Positions 5,757-59,958 are shown, numbered from the stretch's first letter. The stretch is 64,000 nucleotides of DNA from Candidatus Yanofskybacteria bacterium RIFCSPHIGHO2_01_FULL_41_21 (GCA_001794025.1 MGJA01000012.1:8455-72454), one strand, 5' to 3'. Notes: generated by a model from the letters alone, not told the origin. Numbers and translations are program-made.

Positions 5757-5870
5757 CTGAAAACCTACTTTTTGACCCAGTAGCGGAAGGGGTCCCGCGA
5801 AGCGGGGAAACCGACGGTCCGCCAACTGGCGGATGGTTTCCCGGGTCTGGGGCAAATGAGCAGGTTTTCA
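5757..5870. repeat. Family A GC-rich palindromic multi-hairpin element, copy A1 (variant flanks CTGAAAACCT / AGGTTTTCAG)
   Basis: Core GACCCAGTAGCGGAAGGGGTCCCGCGAAGCGGGGAAACCGACGGTCCGCCAACTGGCGGATGGTTTCCCGGGTCTGGGG is shared with the 7583, 42909 and 59798 copies. Compensatory changes preserve the stems (GGAAACC/GGTTTCC versus GGAACC/GGTTCC; CCCGCGAAGCGGG versus CCCAGCGAAGCTGGG). Confidence 0.6.
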
Positions 5871-5872
5871 GT

Positions 5873-7405
5873 TTATCTGGCGTATTCTAATGCTCGTGTC
5901 TCTCTAATAACATTCACGCGGATTTCGCCTGGGTATTTCATTTCTTCTTCAATTTTGCGGGCGACATCTTTCGCAAGCTTGATAGCACCGAGGTCATCAA
6001 TACGGGTTGGAGTAACGAAAATACGTAATTCACGGCCGGCTTGGATAGCGTAGGATTTTTCAACGCCTTCAAAACTGGTGGCGATTCTTTCTAATTCTTC
6101 CAGACGTTTTAAGTAAACCTCAACCGTATCTTTACGCGCGCCCGGTCGAGCGCCGGAGATGGCGTCGGCGGCCTGAACAATGCGGGCTTCCAAAATCGCA
6201 TAAGGATATTCATCGTGATGGGCCTCCATAGCTTGAATCACCCGCGGGTCTACATTGAATTTTTGCAGAACTTTTCGGCCAATTTCCACGTGCGTCCCCT
6301 GCACTTCATGATCAAGAGCTTTCCCGATGTCATGGAATAAAGCGCCTTTCTTTGCCAAAGAAACATCAGCGCCTAATTCCGAAGCCAGCATGCCCGCAAT
6401 ATGAGTCATCTCTACCGAGTGGCGCAAAATATTTTGTCCGAAACTGGTTCTAAAAGCCAAACGACCTAACAAAAAAGTAAGTTTTGGATCAACTGGGCCA
6501 ACGCCGGTCTCAAATAAAGCTGCCTCCCCTTCTTCTTTAATTTTGGCATTTATCTCTTCGTTGGCCTTTTGAACTTCTTCTTCAATCTTAGCGGGATGAA
6601 TACGACCATCAGCAATAAGTTTTTCAATAGCAATTCTGGCAATTTGGCGACGAACAGGATCAAAACCGGAAATAACCAAGGCCTCCGGTGTATCATCAAT
6701 GATTACATCTACTCCCGTTAAACGTTCAATAGTTTTAATATTACGTCCCTCTTTCCCGATGATTTTACCCTTTACTTCATCTGATGGGAGACCAACAACT
6801 GTGGTCATTGAATCGGAAATATGAGAACCGGCGTAACGCTGGACAGCGAGAGTGACAATTTCACGGGCTTTCTTTTCTATTTCTTCTTGATTATCAGTAT
6901 CGAGCTTGTGTATTTTACGATAAAGTTCATCTTTTGATTCTTCTTCAATTTTAGTAATTAATTCCGCTTTGGCGGTTTCCCGATTTAAACTGGCAATACG
7001 TTCAAGTTCACTAATTTGTTTGAGACGGGTCTCTTCAATTTGAGATTTTATAACCACAACCTCTTCGGCTTTGTTTTTTAGCTGTTCTTTTTCTTGGCCC
7101 AATTCTTTGGATTTTTGTTCCAATTCGGTCTCTTTGCGGATAAGTAAACTTTCAATACGCGAAAGCTGAGCCGAACGCTCTTTTTCTTCTTTCTTTGATT
7201 CTTCCAGGGTCTTTAAAGCCGTATTCTTGGCTTCAAGAACTATGTCTTGGGCCTGCGACTTACCATCGTTGATGATTTGCTGAGCTCGTGACTCAGCGTT
7301 GGTGGCTCGTTTAGAGGCGATGAACTGTCGAGCAAAGTACCCGATTCCAATACCGAAAAGTGCGCCCAAAAGTCCCGCTACAAGCGTGGATAATACAATA
7401 GTCAT
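5873..7405 (-). CDS. rny: ribonuclease Y
   Basis: 510 aa. N-terminal TM, long coiled-coil, KH domain (VVGLPSDEVKGKIIGKEGRNIKTIE) and HD domain (HSVEMTHIAGMLASELGAD...ALFHDIGKA). Confidence 0.9.
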   Translation of the reverse strand: MTIVLSTLVAGLLGALFGIGIGYFARQFIASKRATNAESRAQQIINDGKSQAQDIVLEAKNTALKTLEESKKEEKERSAQLSRIESLLIRKETELEQKSKELGQEKEQLKNKAEEVVVIKSQIEETRLKQISELERIASLNRETAKAELITKIEEESKDELYRKIHKLDTDNQEEIEKKAREIVTLAVQRYAGSHISDSMTTVVGLPSDEVKGKIIGKEGRNIKTIERLTGVDVIIDDTPEALVISGFDPVRRQIARIAIEKLIADGRIHPAKIEEEVQKANEEINAKIKEEGEAALFETGVGPVDPKLTFLLGRLAFRTSFGQNILRHSVEMTHIAGMLASELGADVSLAKKGALFHDIGKALDHEVQGTHVEIGRKVLQKFNVDPRVIQAMEAHHDEYPYAILEARIVQAADAISGARPGARKDTVEVYLKRLEELERIATSFEGVEKSYAIQAGRELRIFVTPTRIDDLGAIKLAKDVARKIEEEMKYPGEIRVNVIRETRALEYAR

Positions 7406-7582
7406 TGGTTGGTAGAGTTAGAAAAACCATTTTGGTACTTCTAGCTAATATTAAAGGAAAGTTAACTCTACTATACCTAAAAGTTTGGTTTTATGCAAAT
7501 TGGGTTGTTAACAGTCCATTTCGCCCGATTACCATTTTATTGCGGCTTCATTGCGAGAAGTCGCACAGTAATTTAATCTTAA

Positions 7583-7762
7583 GTCACTTGGGGGTATACT
7601 CTTAGACCCAGTAGCGGAAGGGGTCCCAGCGAAGCTGGGGGAACCGACGGTCCGCCAGCTGGCGGATGGTTCCCCGGGTCTGGGGATAAGAGTATGCCCC
7701 AAGTGACGTTGATACAATTTGAGGAGCAACTGAGTCGGGAGTTGGGTGGAGGAAGTGGAATC
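7583..7762. repeat. Family A element copy A2 with 22-bp TIRs (GTCACTTGGGGGTATACTCTTA ... TAAGAGTATGCCCCAAGTGAC) and about 55-nt conserved tail
   Basis: Near-identical core to A1 and A4. Flanking TIRs and the GTTGGGTGGAGG tail are seen directly. Lies between rny and gpmI. Confidence 0.6.
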
Positions 7763-7777
7763 TGATATACTGATGAC

Positions 7778-9370
7778 ATGAGACCAATCGTTCTGACAAT
7801 TTTGGATGGGTGGGGATATTCTACTAATACAAGCGGTAATGCAATTGCCAGCGCTGAGACGCCGGTTTTAGACGAAATTTTTCAAAACTATCCATCAATG
7901 CTCTTGCAGGCCTCCGGACCGGCGGTGGGAATGACTTATGGTGAACCCGGTAACAGCGAAGTCGGCCACTTAACTATCGGTGCCGGACGAATTATATTCC
8001 AATACCTGACCAGGATTAACAAAGCAATCAATAACGGTGATTTTTTAAAAAACCCGTCCCTTGAAGAAGCGTTCCATCATATTGAAACGAACAGTTCAAC
8101 CGTCCATATTGTCGGCCTTCTAACCTCCGGAGCAGTTCATGCCCACTTTGATCACCTTGTGGCTTTAATAAAATCCGCACAAGAAAGAAAGGTCCCCTAC
8201 AAAATTCACCTTTTTACCGACGGGCGTGACTCGGGTCTTAAAGAAGCCGGGGAAATTTTAAAAAAACTTTCCGACCAAATCGGCGGACTTGAACACCTGG
8301 CCACCGTTATCGGTAGGGATTTTGCGATGGACCGAAATAATAACTGGGGAAAAACCGAGATTGCTTTTAATCTTCTGACCCAAGGTGTTGGCACCACGAG
8401 CGAAGATATTTTTAAAACACTTGAAGAATATTATAACCAAGATATACGTGACGGCGGAATTCCGGCAACAAGAATGGTAAGTAAAGGTGGTTCGCCGGTC
8501 GAAACTTTAGTGAAAGATGGTGATGCAATTGTGTTTTTTAATTTTCGGGAGGACTCCATGCATCAAATTATTCAAGTGTTCACTGATGAAACATTTGATA
8601 AATTTCCCCGTAAACTTCCAGATAATCTTTATCTTGCCTCAATGACCCGCTATATTGATCTACCAGCTGGCGGACCAATTCTACATGTATTATTTCCACC
8701 GCCACCAGTTGACCACTGTCTTTCAGAAATTTTAAGCATTAACGGGAAAAAACATTTTCATATTGCCGAGACCGAAAAATACGCTCACGCCACATTTTTT
8801 TTCAACGGTCTCCGTAATGCACCCTACGAAAACGAAACTGATTTCTTTATTGAATCACTTGAAAACCCAATTGAGCATCCGGAAATGCGAGCCATGGATA
8901 TAGCTAACAAAGTTAGCGCTGAACTGGATCGCGATGGTTATGATTTATATGTTATCAATATCGCTAACGGTGATATTTTGGCTCATCTTGGAAATCTTGA
9001 ATCAGCCACCCAAGGTGTGCGAGCAGTTGATACTGCTTTAGGGGTTATTAAAGAAAAGGTTTTAGAAAAAGATGGAATTATGATTATTACCTCCGATCAT
9101 GGCAATGTTGAATCAATGATCTACAAAAACACGGGTGCTCAAGAAACAAAACATGATGATAATCCTGTGCCATTTTATCTCGTTGCCAACGAATATAAAC
9201 ATCAACGCACAACTGAAGAAACCACTAAATCTCTAGGTCAGGCAAATGGTCTCTTGTCCGATGTCGCGCCGACGATTCTGGAATTATTAGAAATTAAAGT
9301 GCCGGTCGAGATGACCGGCACCAGCTTGCTCTCAGTCCTCAAACCGGAACTTCTTCAAGAAAGGTACTGA
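7778..9370 (+). CDS. gpmI: 2,3-bisphosphoglycerate-independent phosphoglycerate mutase
   Basis: 530 aa, N-terminus MRPIVLTILDGWGYS typical of iPGM. Full-length alkaline-phosphatase-superfamily architecture. Confidence 0.9.
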   Translation: MRPIVLTILDGWGYSTNTSGNAIASAETPVLDEIFQNYPSMLLQASGPAVGMTYGEPGNSEVGHLTIGAGRIIFQYLTRINKAINNGDFLKNPSLEEAFHHIETNSSTVHIVGLLTSGAVHAHFDHLVALIKSAQERKVPYKIHLFTDGRDSGLKEAGEILKKLSDQIGGLEHLATVIGRDFAMDRNNNWGKTEIAFNLLTQGVGTTSEDIFKTLEEYYNQDIRDGGIPATRMVSKGGSPVETLVKDGDAIVFFNFREDSMHQIIQVFTDETFDKFPRKLPDNLYLASMTRYIDLPAGGPILHVLFPPPPVDHCLSEILSINGKKHFHIAETEKYAHATFFFNGLRNAPYENETDFFIESLENPIEHPEMRAMDIANKVSAELDRDGYDLYVINIANGDILAHLGNLESATQGVRAVDTALGVIKEKVLEKDGIMIITSDHGNVESMIYKNTGAQETKHDDNPVPFYLVANEYKHQRTTEETTKSLGQANGLLSDVAPTILELLEIKVPVEMTGTSLLSVLKPELLQERY

Positions 9371-9787
9371 TGACCGATTTCGAGTGACCTTGAGGACTAT
9401 CTGGGAATACCATGGAAGAGAGTTAACATTAGAGAGGCATTCTTTGTATTCTTCCCTAAGAATTTCTCTAGCTCTAACGGAGATAGAAGAAGCGCTTACT
9501 TTATTTGGGTTTCCTAAGTTCGATACTATCTCTTCAATAACCGCTAAAATTTCTATGATGTCGCTAATCTTCCACCCAAAACGACGTTCAAGCTCACGAA
9601 TGTTACTTCTTATAACATTCTTGAGCTGAGTAGGACGATCATTGTGTTTCAAAGAACCTTTCTTATAAAATAGGGCCATCGCGTCGGTCAATCTACAAAG
9701 GGCCCTTATTCTATTCTCCTCTTCACAGAATATCTGAATGGCTTCCATGTCGATTTCATCCAACAAGAAGAATGAGTCAGTGGACAT
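9332..9787 (-). CDS. hypothetical protein
   Basis: ORF with a strong SD (GGAGG) 5 nt upstream of the ATG at 9787 (MSTDSFFLL...). The ORF-track start at 9799 is probably 4 codons too long. No family recognised. Confidence 0.45.
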   Translation of the reverse strand: MSTDSFFLLDEIDMEAIQIFCEEENRIRALCRLTDAMALFYKKGSLKHNDRPTQLKNVIRSNIRELERRFGWKISDIIEILAVIEEIVSNLGNPNKVSASSISVRAREILREEYKECLSNVNSLPWYSQIVLKVTRNRSSVPFLKKFRFED

Positions 9788-9828
9788 AGCAACCTCCAAA
9801 AAGTTGTGGGGTGCACTTCAGAAACCTA

Positions 9829-11904: not shown

Positions 11905-12065
11905 CCAATTCGAGACAATCTAGACGTTACAGGAGTTGGTTGATATAATTAACGGTCAGCAGACCGATCAACCAACGAACTGCAATGCGAGTTTAGCTGA
12001 GGTGACGAAGGTAGCCCGAAGGGTACCAAGGAACCGGAGGCGTGTCGAGAATGGGTTACGACTCC
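11905..12065. repeat. Family B about 160-nt structured element, copy B1, immediately 3' of the 12072..13445 gene
   Basis: About 90% identical to 49908..50068. On the minus (gene-sense) strand it forms nested hairpins GUUGGUUGAU[CGGUC-UGCU-GACCG]...AUCAACCAAC and GGUACCC-UUCG-GGCUACC (UUCG tetraloop). Confidence 0.55.
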
Positions 12066-13445: not shown

Positions 13446-14736
13446 AATTTACACAATCAGCCCGAGTACTTTTAGAATTACCGCAATAATAGGCCTTGGA
13501 TGCGGCAATTTCGCCGGCTCTGGTTTTAGAATTGGCTCCACCACGAGAAAGTTTTGCCGCCGCCGCGATAAAAGCATCTTCTATATTCCAGGGATTTGCT
13601 AAGGGACGACCCGTAATTCTGGCAACCTCGTCTTTATAGCCCATCCAAGTTGAGGGAATAAACTGGGCCGGCCCCATTGCACCACCCCAACCATTACCTA
13701 TCGGACAAGACACAGCTGTCGTTTCCGGATCCATCCCTAATTCAGATGTAATTTTTAAAAATGGTTGGATATCGCGAGTAGGTTTCATAATAACTCTATA
13801 ACCCTTTGAGGGTGGATCGCCAGCCCGATTACATTTGCCGACATTTCGTCCTAACCCGGATTCAAGTTCAAGTTCAGCAATAAGAAATGCCGGGCGAATA
13901 CCGGTTGCAATTGCGGCCAGATTACCAAATTTAACAGCATCGTCAGCCGTCACGCCATTTTGCTGTAAGTAAAAAATCTCGGCTTTAATTTTTTCTATCT
14001 TAGATTGAGATTGACTTACTAATGTCTGAAATTTTGATTCTTGACCCTTTGTCTCTTTTAAAAGTTTGTCTTTTTGGGCCTTATTTTGATCAACACTTCT
14101 TTTATTAATTTCTTCCAGACCTTTCTGTTTTTCAAGATCGGTTCGTTTGTCTTCCAGTTCTTGCCCCTTTTCTTCAAGTGACACTTTGAGAGCTTGAATC
14201 CCATCTATGACCACCCTCAACTCATCTTGGGTTGTTTTAATACTATTTAAATCAGTGAAAAAATCTGAAAGCGCTTCGTGTTTGAGTAAAACAGTGGTCA
14301 ATGTCTCTTGATCGTTTTGATATAAAATTCTTAAATACTGTCCCAAGATAACCTGATTCTTGGCAATTTCTACTTCGGCTTCCTTAATTTTTTCTTGAGT
14401 GCTTTGAACTTCAGAATTTGTCTTGGCAATGGAGAGACCCAAGCTTTTTATTTCTAAGTTAAGTTGATTTATTTTGGCGTTTAATTTAGATACCTCGCTC
14501 TGAAGCGTCACTTTTGTGGGTTGAATCGCATCAATTTGTTGCTGATATTGTTCTATTTCTCGTTGAATTGCATCAATTTCAGAATATTTTTTATTTACGT
14601 CATCAGTAACAGCTGCTTGAGCCAAAAGACCGAAACACAACCCCGACATGATTATTGCCGAAAACCCGCCCAACCAGATGATTCTGGTCATTCGGGCAGG
14701 TACTAAAAACCCCCGATATTCTAATACTCGTTTCAT
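13396..14736 (-). CDS. coiled-coil protein with C-terminal lytic murein transglycosylase (SLT) domain
   Basis: ELESGLG ... GAMGPAQFIPSTW is a classic SLT catalytic motif. Long N-terminal coiled coil after a TM helix. The ORF-track start 14865 extends through Family C element C-b; the start is probably Met at 14736 (MKRVLEY) or 14691. Confidence 0.7.
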   Translation of the reverse strand: MKRVLEYRGFLVPARMTRIIWLGGFSAIIMSGLCFGLLAQAAVTDDVNKKYSEIDAIQREIEQYQQQIDAIQPTKVTLQSEVSKLNAKINQLNLEIKSLGLSIAKTNSEVQSTQEKIKEAEVEIAKNQVILGQYLRILYQNDQETLTTVLLKHEALSDFFTDLNSIKTTQDELRVVIDGIQALKVSLEEKGQELEDKRTDLEKQKGLEEINKRSVDQNKAQKDKLLKETKGQESKFQTLVSQSQSKIEKIKAEIFYLQQNGVTADDAVKFGNLAAIATGIRPAFLIAELELESGLGRNVGKCNRAGDPPSKGYRVIMKPTRDIQPFLKITSELGMDPETTAVSCPIGNGWGGAMGPAQFIPSTWMGYKDEVARITGRPLANPWNIEDAFIAAAAKLSRGGANSKTRAGEIAASKAYYCGNSKSTRADCVNYANKVQALSNRIEQNL

Positions 14737-14747
14737 CCCAGGTAGTA

Positions 14748-14872
14748 GAAATCCGACCTGCGCTTTGTTTTGCTTACTAAAACGCAAGAATAATATCTCT
14801 ATTTTATCTATTAAATGCCACAAATAGTGAAGGTTAAGCGCATGCAAAACATGTCGGATTTTCACTACCTGG
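14748..14872. mobile_element. Family C MITE-like element, long copy (C-b)
   Basis: TIRs CCAGGTAGTAGAAATCCGAC ... GTCGGATTTTCACTACCTGG. Sits 11 nt upstream of the likely start of the transglycosylase gene. Confidence 0.55.
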
Positions 14873-15008
14873 CATCCTATTCATTGTATCATATATCTAC
14901 GAGTCAAGGGATAATTAAATTACCTTTAAATATTGGTCTCAAAATGAATGGTTGATAATTATTTGGTTTTACCGTGTCAAAAAGTTATAATATATATAAC
15001 AATCCAGA

Positions 15009-17225
15009 ATGATAAAAGTCCAAAATAATCTCCGACGTTTTGTCTGTTTTCTTTTAGTTATCTTAGCATCTTTTATTTTTGTAAATTCGGTCTCAGCTGT
15101 CACTCTTGGAATTTCCGGAAATCGTTTTACTCTTGATGGCCAAGCCAAATTTTTGGTCTTAAGTGGTTATTGGGATGGCTTGGATGCTCCTAATCCATCA
15201 GCTGACCTTAATTATCTTAAATCTAAAGGGTTTGATGGTATTAGAATATTTCCTAATTTGTGGGATTATTGTGCTGGTTGTTCTTCTGAATTTACACCTG
15301 GCAACAACCCAGTTATTAAACCCGATGGAACCATAAACCAATCTAGATTAAATCAATTAATTTCAATTATAGACACGGCAAATAGTTTGGGAATGATTGT
15401 TGATGTAACATTTGCCAGAGAAACAATAGCAGGAAATTGCCAAGCTAGCGCGGGGAATCCTGTTATTTGTATCACAGAATTTAAAAATGGAGTTATATCC
15501 GTCGTTAATGCTCTTAAAAATAAAACTAATGTTTTTTACGATTTATCTAATGAATACGATCATCCAGCAATAGATGTCCCTAATGCTGATATAATAGACC
15601 TCAAAAATAGAATCCGAAGTAACGTGGGGACAAACATAATTCTCTCTGTTTCTAGTAGCCAACCCAGCGGCTCTGTAGCAATAAATAATGCCCGTTCTAT
15701 GGGTATGAATTTAGTAAGTGTTCACTGGGCTTCTGGAACAACAGAATTAAATACCAGCCTTTATCCTGGTTCAATAATTTCATCTTTGCCGACATATGTG
15801 GGAGAGCCATATAATACCCACTCTGTGTCTGGTTACACTTCAGCGGAACTTATAAATGGAGTGGTAGAAGCAAAGAAGGCCGGTATCGCCGCTTGGTTGT
15901 TCCATTCAGATGCCACTTTCTTATCAAATGGTGAATATCCAATTAGATTTCAAAGCAATGAACAAGGATTTGTAAATAGTTTTTTATCGGCTTTACAAAG
16001 TGTAACTTGGGGTGGGGGTGGGGGCGGGGGTGGGACGGTACCACCGCCAACCAGTGGGGCTTGCATAAATCCGGCACCGGCCACATCAACTGTTCCGGAC
16101 ATGAAATCGGTTGTCCAAGGGGTAGCAGCGGCTCATCCAAACTGGTTACAAGACGTGTGTAATAGTTATGATTTTATAGACGAAGTAGTAAGACAATTAA
16201 GGGCTGGCCCAGGCGGGACGAGATGGGCTTATGAAGCGAAGCGGGCCAACTTAAGTGATCCTTGGCAGGAAGGAATTTCTTATTACTACGGTTCAGGAAA
16301 CGCACCAACTCCAGGAACAATGAGTCAATATGAGGTCTTTGCAATTGATATCGTTCATCAATATTGCGGTGTTGCCGGCGGAGGCACAAATACTGCTGAT
16401 TGGAATGTTGCAGATTGGCCTTATCGCAGTCCAAACTTAGTAGAAGTCGCTTATCTCTATCCAAGAAACGCCGGTGGCTCTCTGCCTGCTCCCCAACTTT
16501 GTACGGGGCAACCCCCTCCCCAGCCGCCACCGCCGCCCACCGGTCCGCCGACAATAACCGGTATCAGTCCTCTAAGAGCGGCTATCGGTCAAACAGTAGA
16601 AATTTATGGCACGAATTTAGTTGAAGATATTAAATTAGAATTATCGGATGGAAGATTTTACACGGTAACAGGAGTAGTTGATTTTCAAAGAACAACTCTT
16701 AGTTTCACAGTCCCCGATGCTCCCGCCGGTTCCTACAAAATATCTATCACCGGACCAAGTGGTTCAGCTACCAGTCCTCAAAATTTAGAAGTAGTTGCTG
16801 GTGGTTCCGGCTTCCCCCCTCCCCTTAACCTAGGTGTGCCTTCAGAAGGTCTACCAACTGATTTAGGACAGCTTATTGAGGCAATATTCAGTTGGTCTCT
16901 TTCTTTGATTGGTTTAGTTATCTTTGTCCGTTTCTTCTATGCCGGATTCTTATGGTTTACGGCGGCGGGTAATACAAATAGGACGGGACAAGCAAAAGAT
17001 ATAATGAAAAACGCCATTTATGGCGCTTTGATTCTTTTCTCGGCTTGGTTGATTCTTAATACTATCAACCCTGATTTGGTGGGAGGGGTCTTTGATTTAC
17101 CGGGGCTATCGGGGACGGCACCAACAAGCGGGACAGGAGGAACAGGAACAGCGGTCACTTGTAACAATGGTGTTTGCAGTAATGGTTTTACTGGGCCTTG
17201 TCAGGCCCCAACTGACTGTCAATAA
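15009..17225 (+). CDS. large secreted multidomain protein: signal peptide, GH5-like glycoside hydrolase region, poly-Gly and poly-Pro linkers, IPT/TIG-like domain, C-terminal two-helix TrbC/VirB2-pilin-like module, Cys-rich tail
   Basis: Signal peptide FVCFLLVILASFIFVNSVSA. LSNEYDHP resembles the GH5 NEP acid/base motif. ITGISP...VEIYGTNL is IPT/TIG-like. The C-terminal 100 aa (LIEAIFSWSLSLIGLVIFVRFFYAGFLWFTAAGN...AKDIMKNAIYGALILFSAWLIL) has two hydrophobic helices separated by a short loop. Confidence 0.8.
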   Translation: MIKVQNNLRRFVCFLLVILASFIFVNSVSAVTLGISGNRFTLDGQAKFLVLSGYWDGLDAPNPSADLNYLKSKGFDGIRIFPNLWDYCAGCSSEFTPGNNPVIKPDGTINQSRLNQLISIIDTANSLGMIVDVTFARETIAGNCQASAGNPVICITEFKNGVISVVNALKNKTNVFYDLSNEYDHPAIDVPNADIIDLKNRIRSNVGTNIILSVSSSQPSGSVAINNARSMGMNLVSVHWASGTTELNTSLYPGSIISSLPTYVGEPYNTHSVSGYTSAELINGVVEAKKAGIAAWLFHSDATFLSNGEYPIRFQSNEQGFVNSFLSALQSVTWGGGGGGGGTVPPPTSGACINPAPATSTVPDMKSVVQGVAAAHPNWLQDVCNSYDFIDEVVRQLRAGPGGTRWAYEAKRANLSDPWQEGISYYYGSGNAPTPGTMSQYEVFAIDIVHQYCGVAGGGTNTADWNVADWPYRSPNLVEVAYLYPRNAGGSLPAPQLCTGQPPPQPPPPPTGPPTITGISPLRAAIGQTVEIYGTNLVEDIKLELSDGRFYTVTGVVDFQRTTLSFTVPDAPAGSYKISITGPSGSATSPQNLEVVAGGSGFPPPLNLGVPSEGLPTDLGQLIEAIFSWSLSLIGLVIFVRFFYAGFLWFTAAGNTNRTGQAKDIMKNAIYGALILFSAWLILNTINPDLVGGVFDLPGLSGTAPTSGTGGTGTAVTCNNGVCSNGFTGPCQAPTDCQ
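16803..17110 (+). repeat. duplicated about 308-nt C-terminal module (copy 1) shared with 19264..19571 at about 93-95% nucleotide identity
   Basis: Direct comparison of the two nucleotide stretches; they differ only at scattered positions. Confidence 0.8.
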
Positions 17226-35558: not shown

Positions 35559-35572
35559 ATCCTTCTGTTTTT

Positions 35573-42908: not shown

Positions 42909-43127
42909 CGGCTTCCGCTCGGAGTTCGCTCCCTCCACCCCAAACTCGATTATCCATCAAATTGTGTCAACGTCACTTGGGGTATACTCTTATCCCCAGA
43001 CCCAGGGAACCAGTCCCGTCGGTTCCCGAGGCGATTCTAGAGGCGGCTAAAGCACGCCTCCAAGAAACTTCGCCTTGACCAAAGGGTCCCCTTCCGCTAC
43101 TGGGTCTAAGAGTATACCCCAAGTGAC
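42909..43127. repeat. Family A element copy A3 (inverted orientation; GCGAAGC hairpin replaced by a 56-nt nested-hairpin insert)
   Basis: TIRs GTCACTTGGGGTATACTCTTA ... TAAGAGTATACCCCAAGTGAC. Core and tail match A2/A4 in reverse complement. Confidence 0.6.
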
Positions 43128-43171: not shown

Positions 43172-43210
43172 AAAAGACCCCGTCGGAAGTCGCAATGTGG
43201 ACGGGGCTTT
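43172..43210 (-). terminator. rho-independent terminator (strong on minus strand)
   Basis: GACCCCGTC-GGAAGTCGCAATGTG-GACGGGGC. On the minus strand it is followed by UCUUUUUUUAUUU. Confidence 0.6.
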
Positions 43211-43700: not shown

Positions 43701-44031
43701 GGGCTAACGCTCGCTATATATACGAACTTCTCTATGTTTCTATCGGCCTATTCAACTAAATAAAGTGATGATGCCTGAAAATAGCGTATTTACTGGTTTT
43801 TGCGAGCCCATTACTGGGCTCTTTATAAAGAACAGACCTATACAACCATTATAGCACCCTGCGCCTAGGAAGTCAACCCCGCCGTTGAGAAGCGACATTT
43901 AGGGCTAATTAATGGCTTTAAACCTATGTAAATTGTTCCCACCATTATTTTACCTATAGTCCATTTGAAGAATATTCATCGCTTCTCAACGGCGGGGTCA
44001 ATACCCCACAAAATTGGTATAACATAAGGGG

Positions 44032-46282: not shown

Positions 46283-46322
46283 TTTTAGGATTTAGAACTT
46301 AGGAATTAGGACTTAGAACTTA
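46283..46322. repeat. tandem heptamer array NNNNTAG (GATTTAG-AACTTAG-GAATTAG-GACTTAG-AACTTAG) between serS and lysS
   Basis: Same heptamer family as the arrays flanking the four-helix-bundle gene. Confidence 0.35.
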
Positions 46323-46353
46323 GTTTCTGACCCTATGTCCTAATGGCTAATTA

Positions 46354-47688
46354 CTAGTGGCTATCTTTGGGTCGCATGGTTGGGAAAAGAATAACTTCGC
46401 GCAGGGAATGGGAATCGGTTAAAAGGGCGACGAGGCGGTCAATGCCGATACCGAAGCCGGCTGAAGGTGGCATGCCGTATTCAAGGGCTTCAATGAAATC
46501 ATTGTCCATGCGTTGAGCTTCTTCATCACCTTTGGCGCGCATATTTTCTTGGGCCTTAAATCTTTCCTGTTGATCAATCGGGTCGTTTAATTCGGTGAAG
46601 GCCTTAACTAGCTCTGTTCCGCCGGCATAAAATTGAAAGGCCTCTACGACATCCGTACCGGGCTTTAATTTAGTAAGAGGTAACATATCTTTTGGATAGT
46701 CCATAACAAATGTTGGTTCAATCAGTGTCCCCCGAATTTTTTCTTTAAAAACAGTGTCCTCCAAACTGCCAACGTCCTGCATGAGTTCTTTGTAGGTAAT
46801 TCGGCGAAATGGTTTTTTGAATCTTTCAGGCGCAATTGTAACCATTAAGTCCTCAATAAAATCCATACCCCAATTATAGTCCTTATAAGCGACATAAAAT
46901 TCTACGGCTGAAAATTCAGGATTGTGTTCTCGATCAATGCCTTCATTTCTAAAATTAGTGGTAAATTCAAAAACCCGATCTAACCCGCCAACCAAAAGAC
47001 GCTTTAAATATAGTTCCGGCGCAATACGAAGAAACATATCTTGATCAAGAGCATTTAAATGGGTCTTGAACGGGCGGGCAGAAGCACCACCATATAACGG
47101 TTGCAGAGTCGGTGTGGTTACTTCCAAAAATTCATGTTTCATTAAATAGTGACGAATGGCTTGGATAATCTCGGCGCGCTTGATAAATTTCTCGCGAACT
47201 TCAGTACTCATCAATAAATCAAGATAGCGTTTACGGAAACGTTCTTCCACATCAATCAATCCGTGCCACTTTTCCGGCAACGGCAAAAGGGTCTTGGTCA
47301 ATATCCCTATTTCGGTGGCTTCTATAGTGCGTTCGTCTTTTTTGGTTTTGAAAAGAGTTCCCCTAACCTCAATGATGTCACCAATATCAATCAGTTCATT
47401 AAAAAATTTAAACCCATCCGCGCCAAGGGTGTCTTCTTTGGCACAACCTTGGATTTTTGAACCATCTTCATTCAAGTCAAAGAAAATAAGTCCGCCATGT
47501 CCACGTTGGGCCATAATCCTGCCAGCTAGGGTTACCTCTTTTTTTGACTCTGCAAGTTCATCAAATCTTTCCAATGCTTCAACCACGCTCATTGAGCGTT
47601 TTGTTGTCGCCGGATACGGATCTATCCCCATCTTCCGTATTTCCTTCAACTTATCCATTTTTACTTGCCGAATATCATCAAGAGCCAT
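46354..47688 (-). CDS. lysS: lysyl-tRNA synthetase (class II)
   Basis: OB-fold N-domain and class II catalytic core (motif 2 FRNEG, motif 3 GIGIDRL). Start is likely the internal Met (MALDDIRQ) rather than the ORF-track 47727. Confidence 0.9.
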   Translation of the reverse strand: MALDDIRQVKMDKLKEIRKMGIDPYPATTKRSMSVVEALERFDELAESKKEVTLAGRIMAQRGHGGLIFFDLNEDGSKIQGCAKEDTLGADGFKFFNELIDIGDIIEVRGTLFKTKKDERTIEATEIGILTKTLLPLPEKWHGLIDVEERFRKRYLDLLMSTEVREKFIKRAEIIQAIRHYLMKHEFLEVTTPTLQPLYGGASARPFKTHLNALDQDMFLRIAPELYLKRLLVGGLDRVFEFTTNFRNEGIDREHNPEFSAVEFYVAYKDYNWGMDFIEDLMVTIAPERFKKPFRRITYKELMQDVGSLEDTVFKEKIRGTLIEPTFVMDYPKDMLPLTKLKPGTDVVEAFQFYAGGTELVKAFTELNDPIDQQERFKAQENMRAKGDEEAQRMDNDFIEALEYGMPPSAGFGIGIDRLVALLTDSHSLREVILFPTMRPKDSH

Positions 47689-49907: not shown

Positions 49908-50068
49908 CCAATTTGAGACAATCGAGACGTTGCAGGAGTTGGTTGATATAATATTTGGTCAGCAGACCGATCAACCAACGAACTGCAATGCGAGTTTAGC
50001 TGAGGTGACGAAGGTAGCCCGAAGGGTACCGAGGAGCCGGAGGCGTGTCGAGAATGGTAAGGACTCTT
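49908..50068. repeat. Family B structured element, copy B2, ending 2 nt before the greA stop codon
   Basis: See 11905..12065. Confidence 0.55.
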
Positions 50069-53102: not shown

Positions 53103-53884
53103 TACCGTATAACAACGACCGAACCTTGACCAGGTTGAACCGAAGGATTAACACTTATTTTTTTAAAAAGTTGGGTGTCATTATTATCAATATTCCGAAC
53201 AACCCCAATCACTAAACCGGCCGGAGTTGTATCGTCTCCTGTTGTAATAATTATATCTTCTTCCGAAATGACATCGACCTGGGTGATAAGGTTAAAATTC
53301 ATGCCATCAGCCAATGCGCCATGGATAATACCGCTGGTTTGACCGTTTAATACACGGGCGGTAACTGAAAAGGCGGGATCAGTTATAAGCATCACTCGAG
53401 ATGACGTTGAAAAAACTGAACTTATTTTACCGATAAGCTCTCCATTCAAAGAAACAGCCATTTGGTCCACAGTGACTCCATCCGTCAATCCCTTGTTAAT
53501 CAACGCGTAATGGCCATCGGGTCCAAGAGAGATGTTAAATATTCCGGCCGACAACAAATCACGTTTTAAACGGGTCTTCAGACCAATTGCTTTTTTTAAA
53601 ATATCATTTTCGTTTTGGAGCGCTTCAATAGTCGCCAAGGTTGAGACCTGATTGGCGATTAAATCACGGAGCTTGGCGTTTTCAGTAGATAAATTTTTCC
53701 ATTGTTTAACATATCCGAACCATTCCCTTGTCTGGCCGACAATATCAAATAACGAAACCCCCGCAGATATCCCCGGCGCATATTGACGACGCACAGCGTG
53801 AAGCAAAACAATGTTTAGGGCGATTAGGACCGTAAGAATTATGGCTGAAATAAATAATAGTTTAGAAATATTTTCACTGCGCAT
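53102..53884 (-). CDS. mreC: rod shape-determining protein MreC
   Basis: N-terminal TM, coiled-coil, then beta-domains with G-rich motifs (LINKGLTDGVTVDQMAV ... GQTSGIIHG). Confidence 0.8.
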   Translation of the reverse strand: MRSENISKLLFISAIILTVLIALNIVLLHAVRRQYAPGISAGVSLFDIVGQTREWFGYVKQWKNLSTENAKLRDLIANQVSTLATIEALQNENDILKKAIGLKTRLKRDLLSAGIFNISLGPDGHYALINKGLTDGVTVDQMAVSLNGELIGKISSVFSTSSRVMLITDPAFSVTARVLNGQTSGIIHGALADGMNFNLITQVDVISEEDIIITTGDDTTPAGLVIGVVRNIDNNDTQLFKKISVNPSVQPGQGSVVVIR

Positions 53885-54020
53885 CCGGGATAGTAGAAAT
53901 TCGACCTGCGCTTTAGGTTTTTATACCTAAATGCGTACTATCGAATATCATTAAAAACATAATTATGACAAATATTTAATCTAGGCGCCAAAAAAACCCA
54001 GTCGAATTTTCACTACCCGG
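53885..54020. mobile_element. Family C MITE-like element, long copy (C-c), abutting the mreC ATG
   Basis: TIRs CCGGGATAGTAGAAATTCGAC ... GTCGAATTTTCACTACCCGG. Interior shares GACCTGCGCTTTAGGTTTTT and AAACCCAGTCG with C-e. Confidence 0.55.
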
Positions 54021-54025
54021 CATCG

Positions 54026-56694: not shown

Positions 56695-56857
56695 ATATCT
56701 TATAATACTATAACGTAGCTGGCTTGACTAAGTTCGAGGCAAAATCGAGCACCAGGCCGAGCCATATAGACATATGGTGAGGACTGGGCGGAGATTTTAA
56801 CGAAGGAATTGGTCAAGAGCGTCCTCGCCAAAGATTGTGGCGAGAGCGGCCAGCAAG

Positions 56858-57940: not shown

Positions 57941-58518
57941 TAGCTTGTCATTAATTCTTGCTCTTTTTTCTTAACCATCTCGTCAATCTTTTTTTGGAGG
58001 TCGTCTACGATTTTTTGAAGTTCGTCTTTGGCTTTGAAGGCCTCATCTTCGCGGGCAGTTTTTTCTTTGACGGCGGTTTGAACTTTTTTAAGAATATCTT
58101 CACGGGTTTGGCGGATGCGGATGCGGACTTCTTCTATTTTTTGATGGAGAATTTTGGTGAATTCTTTGCGTCGTTCTTCATTTAAGGGTGGAATAGTGAG
58201 ACGAATAGTATGACCGTCATTAGCCGGATTCAAACCCAACGAGCTTTCACGAATCGCTTTTTCAATTAATGGCACGACAGTCGCATCCCAGGGTTGAATC
58301 ACAATCACCCGCGGTTCCGGCGCACTAATACTGGCCAGTTCTTTGACTCGTGAACGCGCGCCCAAATATTCAACTTGAATATCTTCTACCAATGATGGGT
58401 TAGCTCGGCCTGTCCGAATTGAGGCCGCTTCCATTTTGGCCATTTCTAAAGCCGAATCAAAATCCTTTTTCCTAGATGCGATTAATTCCTTATACACCAG
58501 GTAGTAGAAATCCGACAT
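57940..58518 (-). CDS. frr: ribosome recycling factor
   Basis: IRTGRANPSLVEDIQVEYLG and C-terminal helical arm. First 8 codons (MSDFYYLV) are encoded by the TIR of Family C element C-e. Confidence 0.85.
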   Translation of the reverse strand: MSDFYYLVYKELIASRKKDFDSALEMAKMEAASIRTGRANPSLVEDIQVEYLGARSRVKELASISAPEPRVIVIQPWDATVVPLIEKAIRESSLGLNPANDGHTIRLTIPPLNEERRKEFTKILHQKIEEVRIRIRQTREDILKKVQTAVKEKTAREDEAFKAKDELQKIVDDLQKKIDEMVKKKEQELMTS

Positions 58519-58632
58519 GCACCTTAGGTTTTAGACCTAACCATGCAACATCAAATTACTTGTTTATATTTAAATTCCCAGATAGTTGATATAATCGGTG
58601 CTACTAAAACCCAGTCGGATTTTCACTACCTG
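58497..58632. mobile_element. Family C MITE-like element, long copy (C-e), overlapping the frr start
   Basis: TIRs CCAGGTAGTAGAAATCCGAC ... GTCGGATTTTCACTACCTGG. Interior contains TTGATATAAT (a -10-like sequence). Confidence 0.55.
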
Positions 58633-58647
58633 GTACATAATCTTATC

Positions 58648-59502
58648 TTAGAGGTTTATTAAAGTATTTTCAAGGAGGGCGCGATGGTTGTATTGAGGTT
58701 GGTTTATGTACTGATGGAGCATTAAGAGCTGACTAAGAACGTGGTGGGCGTTGGTAAGGGTGGCGCGGTTGGTGTAGGCCCAAGCAAGCCAATAATTAAC
58801 CTGTTCTTGGTAGGGCTGTTTTTCAAAAAGTGTTTTAGCAAAAAGCATTCGTTCGGCGAGCGGACTTTTTAAAATCGTACTGAAATCGACGACGGCCTGT
58901 TTGATATCTTTTATATTTCCACTCTCACTGGCGGTAATAGCCCAGCCAATCCGACCCCGAGCCAAAGCGGTGACTAATTCTTGATCGGTTTTGGATAATT
59001 TAGTGATTACAAGTGATTGAGCAACAATTTTATCGTTGTGAGGCAAAAAAGAAATATGTTGACCACGAGAACTGATGGTCTGGAGTAATTCTTGGGGTTG
59101 GCTAGTAACTAATACGAAAACGACCTTGCCCGTCGGTTCTTCTAAAAGTTTTAAAAACGCATTTGACGCTTCAGGGGTCAGACGATGGGCGTCATCAATA
59201 ATCACAAATTGATAGGGGCCATAATAGGGCCGAAACGAAAGAAATGTTTTTAAATCACGGATGTCTTCTATGTATATTTTTGTATCCCCCTCGGTCACGC
59301 GCGGAGCGATATTAAATAAATCCGGGTCGGTAGAATCAAATTTTTCTCGCCCATTTACCTGTACAAATAAGTCCTGGGCAAACATTTTCTTCCCGATATG
59401 TTTGGGCCCCTGAAAAATATAAGCGTGCGACAAAGCACCTTGTTTAATCAGGTCTTCAAACGTCTTTTTCTGATTATCAAATCCGATTGTTCGCCAAGTC
59501 AT
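58648..59502 (-). CDS. holB: DNA polymerase III delta-prime subunit
   Basis: AAA+ fold with degenerate Walker A (GPKHIGKKMFA), hhhhDDAH box (FVIIDDAHRL) and SRC-like TISSRGQ. Confidence 0.75.
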   Translation of the reverse strand: MTWRTIGFDNQKKTFEDLIKQGALSHAYIFQGPKHIGKKMFAQDLFVQVNGREKFDSTDPDLFNIAPRVTEGDTKIYIEDIRDLKTFLSFRPYYGPYQFVIIDDAHRLTPEASNAFLKLLEEPTGKVVFVLVTSQPQELLQTISSRGQHISFLPHNDKIVAQSLVITKLSKTDQELVTALARGRIGWAITASESGNIKDIKQAVVDFSTILKSPLAERMLFAKTLFEKQPYQEQVNYWLAWAYTNRATLTNAHHVLSQLLMLHQYINQPQYNHRALLENTLINL

Positions 59503-59797
59503 ATGATAATTTAACCATATCTAGAATCACTTCGCCACTGGGTTTATTATCGCGGCTTCCTCTTGGACTATTTCTACTCGCTTCTCCTAATTTCTCTGAC
59601 CGCCCGAAGCAACTCCTGTCGGGCCATGCGGCTTCGCTTCGCTCACCCGTTCCCGACATCCTCGGAACGGTTCCCAGAGAAATAGCGTTGAAACTCGTGA
59701 AATAGAACCAATCGTGCAGATGCTCAATAAACCCAGTGGCTCAGTGCTTTTTCTAGAAAAACCCAAAGCGAGAAGTCACGTAGCAATTTAATTCTAA

Positions 59798-59958
59798 GTC
59801 ACTTGGGGTATACTCTTAGACCCAGTAGCGGAAGGGGTCCCAGCGAAGCTGGGGGAACCGACGGGACTGGTTCCCCGGGTCTGGGGATAAGAGTGTACTC
59901 CAAGTGACGTTGATACAGACGGATAATCAAGTCGGGGGTTGGGGTGGAGGGAGCGGAG
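59798..59958. repeat. Family A element copy A4 (TIRs + core + tail; tail overlaps the last codons of murG)
   Basis: Near-identical to A2, with a shortened central hairpin (GGAACCGACGGGACTGGTTCC). Confidence 0.6.

What the first reader, a model, noticed from the sequence alone, without database searches (positions are those of the whole stretch)
5757..59958. Family A: GC-rich multi-hairpin palindromic repeat with compensatory base changes between copies, in an AT-rich genome
Four copies (5757..5870, 7583..7762, 42909..43127 inverted, 59798..59958) share a roughly 80-nt core of three hairpins. Stems are maintained by paired substitutions:
- GGAAACC...GGUUUCC in A1 versus GGAACC...GGUUCC elsewhere.
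- CCCGC-GAA-GCGGG versus CCCAGC-GAA-GCUGGG; this is the hyper-stable GCGAAGC mini-hairpin.
- The central hairpin is shortened in A3 and A4.
- In A3 the GCGAAGC hairpin is replaced by a 56-nt nested hairpin.
Three copies add 22-bp flanking TIRs GTCACTTGGGGTATACTCTTA and a conserved 55-nt tail ...GTTGGGGTGGAGG. Covariation argues for selection on structure (RNA or cruciform DNA), REP/BIME-like or a structured sRNA family.
Basis: seen in the sequence. Interest (0 to 1): 0.7.

Follow-up and report, generated by a model that had tools for sequence, protein, structure and literature searches.

The report
Nested GC-rich palindromic repeats in Yanofskybacteria
The four copies belong to an apparently undescribed family of small GC-rich, hairpin-forming repeats in an ultra-small groundwater bacterium (Candidatus Yanofskybacteria). 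The repeats keep their fold by paired mutations, sit next to gene ends, nest inside other palindromes, and in relatives sit in-frame inside protein-coding genes, much like the palindromic elements of Rickettsia.

Summary
The window holds exactly four copies, all intergenic, and none is expected by chance.

I collected 52 distinct copies from related groundwater Patescibacteria contigs. They share a three-way junction:
- an outer stem P1 of 14-28 bp;
- P2 (CCCAG/CUGGG);
- two hairpins, Pa and Pb.

The unpaired blocks are near-invariant: GACCCAGUAGCGGAAGGGG, GNCGGGACU and GGGUCUGGGG.

Covariation is massive. 22 of 37 pairs change on both sides, and 90% of cells pair against 72% in shuffles. Wobble pairs favour one strand, 35 against 10.

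The family behaves as mobile or selfish DNA rather than as an sRNA gene:
- two subfamilies carry identical long arms at unrelated loci;
- relatives show filled and empty sites, including one exact 90-nt difference;
- the core is inverted at orthologous sites;
- copies nest inside other palindromic elements;
- copies lie in-frame and stop-free inside a UvrD/PcrA-like helicase (three copies) and Wzy-like membrane proteins (two sites).

I found no Rfam match, no promoter or terminator signal, and mixed orientation with a roughly 75% antisense bias.

It is most like Rickettsia palindromic elements and REP/REPIN, but the conservation pattern is inverted: conserved centre, variable arms. The mobilising enzyme and any host role remain unknown. 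I rate it a new variant of a known kind, of moderate to high interest.

The parts
5750..5878 (+). Copy A1 (subfamily S2). P1 arms are about 5750-5773 and 5853-5878; the core is 5774-5852; the Pb-loop insert hairpin TCCGCCAACTGGCGGA is at 5818-5833. The 3' arm contains the rny stop codon (5873-5875, minus strand). A minus-strand terminator follows at 5682-5670, so A1 lies in the rny 3' UTR in antisense orientation.
   Evidence: (93 bits).
7580..7710 (+). Copy A2 (subfamily S1). P1 arms are 7583-7604 and 7687-7707; the core is 7605-7685; the Pb-loop insert hairpin is at 7651-7666. It lies in the divergent rny/gpmI spacer and is the only such 'divergent' case found.
   Evidence: 106 bits.
42972..43127 (-). 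Copy A3 (subfamily S1), inverted. The core is 42994-43106. An extra nested hairpin of about 57 nt (about 43027-43083) sits where the other copies carry the Pa hairpin. It lies after the stop codon of the PMT_2 gene (42897) and beside a terminator at 43163-43215.
   Evidence: (71 bits). The same nested hairpin, with compensatory changes, occurs in L031 and L032.
59795..59911 (+). Copy A4 (subfamily S1). P1 arms are 59798-59818 and 59888-59908; the core is 59819-59886. It lies between holB and murG, antisense to both.
   Evidence: 128 bits.
7708..7762 (+). Right arm ('tail') of the outer palindromic element O that hosts A2. The degenerate left part is about 7553-7582.
   Evidence: alignment of 15 S1 copies with flanks. 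The left arm CACCCTAACCCCC pairs with the right arm GGGGGTTGGGGTG.
42909..42971 (-). Right arm ('tail') of outer element O hosting A3. It ends 12 nt from the PMT_2 stop codon. The left remnant is 43128-43145.
59760..59797 (+). Left part of outer element O hosting A4.
59909..59958 (+). Right arm ('tail') of outer element O hosting A4. The murG stop codon (59959-59961) follows immediately.
59554..59721 (+). Separate structured repeat ('M module'). In several loci it lies about 75-225 nt upstream of a family-A copy in the same orientation. It belongs to the composite but not to family A.

Best explanation
Family A is a lineage-specific family of non-coding, GC-rich palindromic repeat elements in Candidatus Yanofskybacteria and close Patescibacteria relatives. 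I read it as mobile or selfish DNA of the REP/REPIN, Rickettsia-palindromic-element (RPE) and MITE kind, not as an RNA gene.

**Anatomy.** Each copy is a three-way junction.
- P1 is a 14-28-bp inverted repeat whose sequence differs between loci.
- P2 is (G)NCCCAG/CUGGGN(C).
- Pa is a hairpin, CCC[variable]GGG.
- Pb is a hairpin, GRAACC[GNCGGGACU]GGUUYC.
- The junction strand UAGCGGARGGGG is near-invariant and contains GTAG.

**Shown here.**
- Copies occupy short spacers next to stop codons.
- They spread as subfamilies with identical arms.
- They are gained or lost between relatives.
- The core inverts between its arms.
- Copies nest in other palindromes and take small hairpins into their own loops.
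- They survive inside genes only when in-frame and stop-free.
- Stems are kept by compensatory change, with G-T/G-U tolerance on one strand.

**Inferred.**
- The unit that matters is one folded single strand, most probably single-stranded DNA.
- That strand is recognised by shape plus the conserved junction bases by a trans-acting enzyme. The working model is a RAYT or IS200/IS605-type HUH enzyme; none was found.
- Gene conversion between copies may help keep the cores alike.
For: **Real, structured family.**
- 52 distinct copies were collected.
- 90.1% of cells pair against 72.1% in shuffles. 22 of 37 pairs change on both sides. The covariation score is 0.471 against 0.161 (0 of 500 shuffles reach it), and slid controls stay at or below 0.175.
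- RNAalifold independently recovers P1, P2, Pa and Pb.
- A26->C and G92->U variants turn the A-G mismatch into Watson-Crick pairs, which fixes the P2 register.

**Strand asymmetry.**
- P1 wobble pairs number 35 on the + strand and 10 on the - strand (binomial p = 2.5e-4).
- The + strand folds better in 47 of 51 copies.

**Mobility.**
- Subfamilies S1 (19 copies) and S2 (6 copies) carry the same long arms at unrelated loci.
- L036 (filled) and L060 (empty) differ by exactly 90 nt within near-identical flanks.
- L043 is filled where L034 is empty. L004 is filled where L051 is empty and the window holds another repeat.
- The core is inverted at both orthologous Wzy sites. At site 1 the arms are homologous.

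**In-frame coding copies.**
- There are three in the L032 UvrD/PcrA-like ORF. The PcrA alignment shows about 49 and 64 extra residues at two of the sites.
- Two sites lie in Wzy_C-like proteins P0001, P0003, P0004, P0005 and the L036 ortholog. These were seen on independent assemblies.

**DNA-like features.**
- 42 of 53 Pa terminal loops are triloops. 22 of 51 copies carry GCGAAGC. From memory, d(GCGAAGC) is an unusually stable DNA mini-hairpin.

**REP analogy.**
- TnpA-REP binds single-stranded REP but not its complement, and needs GTAG (PMC8266576).
- REPIN hairpins show compensatory changes (PMC3116915).
- RPEs insert in-frame into genes (PMC10969869).
Against: - No transposase or other candidate enzyme was found. 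A crude HUH/Y1 motif scan of about 775 open segments in the held DNA found none, and whole genomes could not be searched.
- No clean target-site duplication was seen.
- The conservation pattern (centre conserved, arms variable) is the reverse of MITEs and REPINs.
- Cores stay almost identical at orthologous sites. One pair matches at 67 of 68 positions while the flanking coding DNA is 77-79% identical. Selfishness alone does not predict this; it needs gene conversion or host-level selection.
- The favoured (+) strand sits on the C-rich, gene-antisense strand in 40 of 51 copies. On the usual reading of GC skew, that is not the lagging-strand template used by IS608-type elements.
- Copies were collected with an exact 19-mer, so conservation of that block is partly ascertained. 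Only 9 copies were found by the model alone, plus further copies found through a peptide search.
Confidence: 0.6

Rival explanations
1. A structured RNA family. The junction would be a functional RNA: an sRNA, a 3'-UTR stabiliser or processing signal, a protein-binding motif, or a new self-cleaving ribozyme. Selection on the RNA fold would explain the covariation.
For: - Unpaired junction and loop bases are near-invariant while helices vary with compensation, which is the classic signature of a functional RNA.
- Wobble asymmetry points to one strand.
- Most copies sit between a stop codon and a terminator, that is, in 3' UTRs.
- Cores are conserved far above flanking coding DNA.
Against: - There is no Rfam match even at E <= 10.
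- There is no -10 enrichment upstream and no T-tails. At least 6 T follow P1 in 2 of 51 copies on the + strand and 10 of 51 on the - strand.
- Orientation is mixed, and neighbouring mRNAs mostly carry the - strand, the strand with A-C mismatches.
- Copies lie inside ORFs in both orientations. An obligatory terminator or self-cleaver would destroy those mRNAs.
- Triloops dominate rather than GNRA/UNCG tetraloops.
Confidence: 0.2
2. Neutral palindrome dynamics. These would be old, inactive MITE relics whose arms stay paired through hairpin-templated repair (quasipalindrome correction), and whose cores stay alike through gene conversion. No selection on fold or function would be involved.
For: - Cores invert between homologous arms.
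- A1 and A2, which lie 1.8 kb apart and have different arms, share a Pb-loop hairpin that A1's ortholog in L014 lacks.
- Identity decays outward from the core.
Against: - Template switching predicts no strand asymmetry, yet wobble pairs are 35 against 10. Known deamination biases predict the opposite direction.
- Subfamilies with identical arms at unrelated loci, and an exact 90-nt filled/empty difference in near-identical flanks, indicate recent movement.
- The Pb pair 61-79 is A-U or G-C and never unpaired in 23 copies.
Confidence: 0.12
3. A host-exapted DNA site. The folded or cruciform element would be a binding site for a host protein, for example in nucleoid organisation, as a replication or transcription barrier, or as an uptake or recombination signal. 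It would be kept by host-level selection.
For: - Conservation at orthologous sites.
- Preference for gene 3' ends and avoidance of divergent promoter spacers: 11 convergent cases against 1 divergent.
- Orientation bias of 40 of 51.
Against: - Density is low, about 1 per 16 kb in the window.
- Sites are readily empty or filled by unrelated palindromic families in relatives.
- Presence inside coding sequences is hard to reconcile with a positional role.
Confidence: 0.08

Closest known systems
Rickettsia palindromic elements (RPE)
   Same: Both are small (about 100-150 bp) palindromic repeats in a reduced genome. Both are found in spacers and, strikingly, in-frame inside unrelated protein-coding genes, where they add a peptide. 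No transposase is known for either (PMC10969869; here).
   Different: - The phylum is different and the sequence appears unrelated (not compared directly).
- This family is GC-rich in a roughly 41% G+C genome.
- It has a defined three-way junction with near-invariant unpaired bases.
- The nucleic-acid fold, with both arms paired, is still maintained inside genes.
- The core inverts in situ.
- Only two host gene families have been found so far, against dozens for RPE.
REP / REPIN elements with RAYT (TnpA-REP) transposases
   Same: - Both are repeated palindromes.
- An invariant GTAG lies 5' of paired sequence.
- Hairpins are kept by compensatory changes.
- Recognition of one single strand would explain the wobble asymmetry (here).
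   Different: - In REPINs the conserved parts are the two inverted REPs and the spacer varies. Here the centre is conserved and the arms vary.
- GTAG sits at a multi-helix junction, 10 nt before Pa, not directly before a simple hairpin.
- Copies are not strictly extragenic.
- No RAYT gene was found, though whole genomes were not searchable.
Bacterial MITEs (Correia/NEMIS, ERIC, RUP, BOX and similar)
   Same: Both are short, non-coding and multi-copy, with inverted-repeat ends. Both favour intergenic positions and show presence/absence between strains and occasional in-frame intragenic copies.
   Different: - Terminal repeats are not conserved across the family.
- No parent insertion sequence was found.
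- No clear target-site duplication was seen.
GC clusters of yeast mitochondria and double-hairpin elements of chytrid mitochondria (from memory; not checked in the library)
   Same: Both are GC-rich, hairpin-forming mobile repeats in small AT-rich genomes. Both insert in spacers and occasionally in coding regions, and structure is conserved more than sequence.
   Different: Those are organellar with unrelated sequences. The comparison rests on my recollection only.

Membership tests
REP/REPIN-RAYT | A conserved GTAG tetranucleotide lies 0-2 nt 5' of a simple imperfect palindrome. | tested here: inconclusive
   GTAG is invariant in all 52 collected copies, although the collection patterns required it. 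It sits at the P2/junction boundary. That is 10 nt before Pa, and directly before only a weakly supported 3-bp helix (35-83, 36-82, 37-81; no double changes).
REP/REPIN-RAYT | Two conserved REPs lie in inverted orientation around a variable spacer. | tested here: not met
   The centre is conserved and the arms vary. 18 of 20 P1 pairs change on both sides.
REP/REPIN-RAYT | The genome holds a single-copy RAYT (Y1 HUH) gene, usually flanked by REPs. | not testable with these tools
   Only about 390 kb of related DNA is held. A crude HUH plus Tyr motif scan of 775 open segments found nothing.
REP/REPIN-RAYT | Strictly extragenic location. | tested here: not met
   In-frame copies lie inside UvrD-like and Wzy-like ORFs.
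Rickettsia palindromic elements | Palindromic repeats of about 100-150 bp inserted in-frame in protein-coding genes. | tested here: met
   - L032 ORF 2219-5638 carries 3 copies, and the ORF is intact across the Pfam domains UvrD-helicase, UvrD_C and PDDEXK_1.
- Wzy-like proteins carry copies at 2 sites.
Rickettsia palindromic elements | Sequence homology to RPE families of Rickettsia. | not tested
   No RPE sequences were available in the tools. The organism is Ca. Yanofskybacteria. I therefore claim 'works like', not membership.
Classical MITE | Terminal inverted repeats are conserved across the family and match a parent insertion sequence. | tested here: not met
   Arms are conserved only within subfamilies S1 and S2. 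No parent element was seen in the held DNA.
Classical MITE | Target-site duplication of fixed length. | tested here: inconclusive
   - L036 and L060 differ by exactly 90 nt. The empty site TATTGGCGGCCAATA is itself palindromic, so a 7-15-bp duplication, insertion at a palindrome centre, and deletion between repeats cannot be told apart.
- L043 against L034 shows no duplication.
Any Rfam RNA family (including known self-cleaving ribozymes) | A match to a curated covariance model. | tested here: not met
   The gathering-threshold scan of the window and of L003/L004 found only one tRNA. The E <= 10 scan of 7500-7800 gave one spurious CRISPR-repeat hit outside the element.
Integron attC site | Conserved outer R''/R' core sites (RYYYAAC...GTTRRRY) with a variable centre, in cassette arrays beside an integrase. 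| tested here: not met
   Conservation is central, not terminal. The neighbours are housekeeping genes (rny, gpmI, murG, holB, proS) and there is no array.

The most novel reading that the evidence does not exclude
The conserved three-way junction is a functional single-stranded nucleic-acid motif under purifying selection even inside coding sequences. It would be one of two things:
- the substrate of a dedicated, still unidentified enzyme, making this a REPIN-RAYT-like long-term partnership in the candidate phyla radiation with a new substrate architecture; or
- a new class of structured or catalytic RNA carried on a mobile palindrome.

Together with the outer element O, the M module and the small loop hairpins, it would form a multi-level system of palindromes that insert into one another's loops.
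Probability: 0.25. Interest if true: 0.8.

Novelty: new variant of a known kind. Interest (0 to 1): 0.62.

Why it matters
Patescibacteria have tiny, streamlined genomes in which selfish repeats are not expected to persist. Yet this lineage carries several interlocking palindromic families, at about one family-A copy per 16 kb in the window.

The family offers a second, independent case of the Rickettsia phenomenon of palindromic DNA living in-frame inside essential-type genes. Here the nucleic-acid fold is visibly maintained within coding sequence, so two overlapping constraints can be studied together.

The inverted conservation pattern and the strand-asymmetric wobble pairs give a concrete handle for finding whatever recognises the fold.

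There are practical consequences too. These repeats can break or mis-join metagenome assemblies. They add peptides to annotated proteins, and they supply or abut stop codons of neighbouring genes.

Tried and rejected
- **Genome and viral scans with the 19-mer.** Besides two true copies in a related MAG, they returned chance hits in GC-rich coding DNA (L001, L002, L005-L007). About 14 further chance hits came from the metagenome scan. All were discarded.
- **Alternative P2 register GACCC/GGGUC.** Rejected, because GCCCCAG variants are not compensated in GGGUC, whereas position 26-92 becomes C-G or A-U.
- **Pseudoknot between the Pb loop GGGAC and GUCCC.** Rejected by inspection of the copies, because the N before CCC varies without compensation.
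- **'Orthologous copies at the rny 3' end in six genomes'.** This was my own early reading and it was wrong. Only A1 and L014 are syntenic; the others are subfamily S2 copies at other loci.
- **Outer arms copied from the target.** The idea is suggested by L036 against L060 but contradicted by L043 against L034, where the whole 25-bp arm is extra. It remains unresolved.
- **Own promoter or intrinsic terminator.** Consensus scans and a position-specific -10 and T-run count show nothing above the opposite-strand control.
- **Search of 1.84 billion representative proteins with a 30-residue window peptide.** No hits; the query was too short.
- **Concatenated six-frame peptide query.** It gave only 5 significant proteins, so the number of host gene families is a lower bound.
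- **Crude HUH/Y1 motif scan for a transposase.** Nothing found.
- **Literature searches for Patescibacteria or CPR palindromic elements or MITEs.** No description found.

Full report
**1. The observation**

- The 19-mer GACCCAGTAGCGGAAGGGG occurs four times (5774+, 7605+, 43088-, 59819+). None is expected in shuffled sequence.
- The 21-nt arm GTCACTTGGGGTATACTCTTA flanks A2, A3 and A4 as inverted pairs (the 7583 arm carries one extra G).
- A1 has its own, different arm of about 25 bp.
- A covariance model built later, run without filters, finds exactly these four copies. Everything else scores 21 bits or less and is a plain hairpin.
- The copies are 56-60% G+C in a roughly 41% G+C window. They fold with z-scores from -4.6 to -9.0.
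- All four are intergenic. A1 lies just past the stop codon of rny. A2 lies between rny and gpmI. A3 lies just past a PMT_2-family gene. A4 lies between holB and murG.

- the Pb stem A-U versus G-C;
- the Pa stem GC versus AGC/GCU;
- the central hairpin present in A1 and A2 only;
- a nested hairpin of about 57 nt in A3.

**2. Organism and wider sample**

Window proteins are exact matches to Candidatus Yanofskybacteria bacterium RIFCSPHIGHO2_01_FULL_41_21, on a contig of 104,896 bp.

Scans with the exact 19-mer gave:
- two copies in a related Patescibacteria MAG;
- about 36 in groundwater metagenome contigs;
- chance hits in GC-rich coding DNA, which I discarded.

Model R1 added nine copies that lack the exact 19-mer. 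Further copies came from contigs found through proteins. In all I have 52 distinct complete copies. Several loci are syntenic with the window at 72-92% nucleotide identity.

**3. Anatomy**

Every copy has these parts:
- P1, an outer stem of 14-28 bp;
- P2, (G)NCCCAG paired with CUGGGN(C);
- the junction strand UAG[C/U]GGA[A/G]GGGG-N;
- hairpin Pa, CCC[variable]GGG;
- one G;
- hairpin Pb, G[A/G]AACC-G[A/C/U]CGGGACU-GGUU[U/C]C;
- a variable 1-3-nt linker;
- GGGUCUGGG[G/U].

On a gapless 23-copy alignment the pair counts are as follows:

| Measure | Observed | Control |
|---|---|---|
| Cells that pair | 90.1% | 72.1% in shuffles |
| Pairs that change on both sides | 22 of 37 | - |
| Covariation score | 0.471 | 0.161 in shuffles (0 of 500 reach it) |
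| Covariation score, register slid by 1-3 columns | - | at most 0.175 |

- 18 of 20 P1 pairs covary.
- Pb pair 61-79 is A-U in 12 copies, G-C in 11 and never unpaired.
- RNAalifold, given no structure, predicts the same four helices.
- Model-only copies show A26->C and G92->U, and G25->A with C93->U. These turn the usual A-G mismatch into Watson-Crick pairs. That supports the P2 register and a continuous P1-P2 helix.
- Pa ranges from 3 bp to 16 bp, and its loops are not conserved.

**4. Which strand folds?**

I compared the outer stem alone on both strands.
- G-U (G-T) pairs number 35 on the strand written GACCCAGUAGCGG (the + strand) and 10 on its complement (binomial p = 2.5e-4).
- The whole element is more stable on the + strand in 47 of 51 copies (the earlier count was 28 against 9).

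The flanks of the + strand are C-rich in 40 of 51 copies. The gene on the element's 3' side is on the opposite strand in 32 of 39. Known deamination biases on coding or leading strands would therefore produce the opposite asymmetry. This argues for selection on one folded single strand. It does not say whether that strand is RNA or DNA.

**5. Evidence that it is mobile or selfish DNA**

(a) *Subfamilies.*
- 19 copies share the arm GTCACTTGGGGTATACTCTTA (S1).
- 6 copies share CCAGATAAACTRAAAACCTRCTCTTT (S2, which includes A1).
- Both occur at unrelated loci.
- The other 27 copies have individual arms. These still share an inner consensus (..ACCTGCYCTTT) and diverge outward.

(b) *Filled and empty sites.*
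- L036 and L060 carry near-identical flanks and differ by exactly 90 nt: a 62-nt core plus 14-bp arms.
- L043 carries a copy between a stop codon and a terminator hairpin where L034 has none.
- L004/L023 carry a copy between proS and rseP. There L051 has a spacer of about 12-20 nt, and the window has an unrelated repeat.

(c) *Inversion.* In the Wzy-like gene the core is inverted between orthologs at both sites. At site 1 the arms remain homologous in gene orientation.

(d) *Nesting.*
- S1 copies sit at the centre of a second palindromic element, which I call O. Its left arm is CACCCTAACCCCC and its right arm GGGGGTTGGGGTG.
- L023 has O with a different interior.
- Small hairpins recur as inserts in Pa, in the Pb loop and in the O left arm. 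They are TCCGCCARCTGGCGGA, CCTGCC..GGCAGG and CCACTTT..AAAGTGG.
- The nested A3 hairpin recurs, with compensatory changes, in L031 and L032 under different arms.

(e) *The same spacer holds different palindromic families in different relatives.* The rny-gpmI spacer holds A2/O in the window, the M module in L021, and a 142-nt inverted-repeat element in L014.

**6. In-frame copies inside genes**

*UvrD/PcrA-like helicase-nuclease.*
- L032 has a 1139-residue ORF (2219-5638) with the domains UvrD-helicase, UvrD_C and PDDEXK_1.
- It runs straight through three copies. Two are antisense and one is sense.
- Against PcrA, the query has about 49 and 64 extra residues at exactly two of those places.

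*Wzy_C-like membrane proteins.*
- A six-frame peptide query recovered five Wzy_C-like membrane proteins with element-derived peptides.
- One of them, P0003, is from the same genome as the window, probably on the same contig outside the window.
- At the DNA level these copies are complete, with about 20-bp arms inside the coding sequence.
- Site 1 is filled in four orthologs, one of them inverted, and lacks the element in L036, where another sequence occupies it. Site 2 is filled in L058, L062 and L036 and cleanly empty in L060.
- The proteins occur on several independent assemblies.
- Five of the six reading frames of the core are free of stop codons.

This is the behaviour described for Rickettsia palindromic elements (PMC10969869).

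**7. Constraint in situ**
- The site-1 copies of L058 and L062 match at 67 of 68 core positions, while their flanking coding DNA is 77-79% identical.
- Their arms have diverged at about a third of positions. They stay well paired in most orthologs, though L062's arms carry several mismatches.
- A1 and its syntenic partner in L014 are identical outside the Pa loop and the Pb insert, next to an rny gene that is 82% identical.

Either selection or gene conversion between copies keeps the cores alike. A hint of conversion is that A1 and A2, 1.8 kb apart with different arms, share the Pb-loop hairpin that the L014 ortholog lacks.

**8. Against an RNA gene or a regulatory RNA**
- No Rfam family matches, including all known small ribozymes.
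- Promoter-like and terminator-like sites around the window copies are at chance level.
- Across 51 copies, -10-like hexamers upstream are no better on the + strand than on the - strand. T-runs follow the stem in 2 copies (+) against 10 (-).
- Where transcription can be inferred, the mRNA carries the - strand, which is the worse folder. For A1 this is the rny 3' UTR ahead of the terminator at 5682-5670. For A3 it is the PMT_2 3' region. For A4 it is the holB-murG operon spacer.
- Sense and antisense copies inside ORFs show that neither orientation is an obligatory terminator or self-cleaver, if those genes are functional.
- Pa loops are mostly triloops (42 of 53), and 22 of 51 copies carry GCGAAGC. 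From memory, d(GCGAAGC) is an exceptionally stable DNA mini-hairpin, while variable hairpins in functional RNAs are usually capped by GNRA or UNCG tetraloops. This is an inference, not a test.

**9. Best explanation**

Family A is a lineage-specific palindromic repeat family that behaves like REP/REPIN, RPE and MITE elements.
- *Shown:* repetition, fold, covariation, strand asymmetry, gain and loss, inversion, nesting, and in-frame coding copies.
- *Inferred:* one folded single strand (most likely DNA) is recognised, by shape plus the invariant junction bases (which include GTAG), by a trans-acting enzyme.

The working model is TnpA-REP/RAYT. That enzyme binds single-stranded REP but not its complement and needs GTAG (PMC8266576). 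Its REPIN substrates show compensatory hairpin changes (PMC3116915).

I could not find such an enzyme. A crude motif scan of the held DNA was negative, and I could not search whole genomes. The strand that folds best is on the C-rich, gene-antisense side, which does not fit the IS608 paradigm in a simple way. I put 0.6 on 'mobile palindromic DNA family' and much less, about 0.3, on the specific HUH-type mechanism.

**10. Comparison, novelty and score**

- *What it works like:* RPE (in-frame coding insertions) and REP/REPIN (folded single strand, GTAG, compensatory stems).
- *What it is not a member of:*
  - REPIN, because the conservation pattern is reversed and copies are not extragenic;
  - classical MITEs, because there are no family-wide terminal repeats, no parent insertion sequence and no clear target duplication;
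  - attC sites;
  - any Rfam family.
- *Literature:* searches of the paper library found no description of palindromic repeats or MITEs in Patescibacteria.

I rate it a new variant of a known kind, with interest 0.62. The most novel reading not excluded is a selected single-stranded motif with a dedicated partner enzyme, or a new structured RNA riding on a multi-level nested palindrome system. I give that a probability of about 0.25.

**Caveats**
- Copies were ascertained with an exact 19-mer.
- Many copies are related, so the counts are not independent events.
- Gene context rests on crude ORF calls.
- All data are metagenome assemblies.

Noticed in passing
window 43165-43876 (minus strand): A roughly 650-nt GC-rich stretch has no long ORF. 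It has a near-consensus promoter (TTGACT-17-TATAAT with TG, 43876-43848) and a strong terminator (stem 43191-43176 followed by T7). There is no Rfam or ARAGORN match. Its 5' part, and a similar promoter, are conserved in L031 (about 7870-8042). It is possibly an unrecognised non-coding RNA gene.
   Followed up: partly
window 59554-59721 (+); also L021 169-337, L028 5115-5287, L030 3068-3197, L034 (three copies), L056, L023, L020: A second structured repeat ('M module') shows its own compensatory changes (for example CCGAAG/CCUCGG versus CUGGGG/CCCCAG). In several loci it lies about 75-225 nt upstream of a family-A copy in the same orientation (about 500 nt in L056). The reverse complement of its first roughly 25 nt reappears just past the O right arm in several loci, which suggests a still larger palindromic composite.
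   Followed up: partly
window 7553-7582 with 7708-7762; 42909-42971 with 43128-43145; 59760-59797 with 59909-59958; L023 3634-3878: Outer palindromic element 'O' (CACCCTAACCCCCAGCGAGAA ... GAGTCGGGGGTTGGGGTGGAGGGAG) hosts the S1 copies. In L023 it has a different interior. In at least 5 loci its right end is followed within a few nt by YTATTK, the reverse complement of the ..AA-TAR stop of the convergent gene.
   Followed up: partly
window 14734-14875, 53882-54023, 58493-58636; L014 5820-5960: Another inverted-repeat element of about 142 nt has arms of the CCAGGTAGTAGAAATCCGAC type. In L014 it occupies the rny-gpmI spacer, where the window has A2 and L021 has the M module.
   Followed up: no
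window 5412-5525 and 56709-56822: A 114-nt repeat occurs in inverted orientation at 78% complementarity. The second copy fills the proS-rseP spacer, where L004/L023 have a family-A copy and L051 has almost no spacer.
   Followed up: no
window 11905-12054 and 49908-50057; L054 5063-5199: A 150-nt direct repeat at 94% identity is also present in a related contig.
   Followed up: no
window 43873-44001: A palindrome has 20-bp GC-rich arms (ACCCCGCCGTTGAGAAGCGA / TCGCTTCTCAACGGCGGGGT) around an 85-nt AT-rich centre. It lies between ftsQ and the putative RNA gene. L031 has a family-A copy at the equivalent place.
   Followed up: no
window 16803-17102 and 19264-19563: A 300-nt direct repeat at 92% identity lies inside two adjacent large ORFs (15009-17225 and 17257-19587). 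These are probably tandem paralogous genes.
   Followed up: no
window 9332-9799 (minus strand): A 155-residue ORF lies between gpmI and the next gene. It is absent from the syntenic loci L014, L012 and L021, which carry a family-A copy in that spacer instead.
   Followed up: no
window 35188-35602 and 46287-46356; L046 2430-2470: Short TTAGGAAT / CTAGG-type repeats occur in inverted pairs. A similar-looking sequence fills the holB-murG spacer of L046, where the window has the M module plus A4.
   Followed up: no
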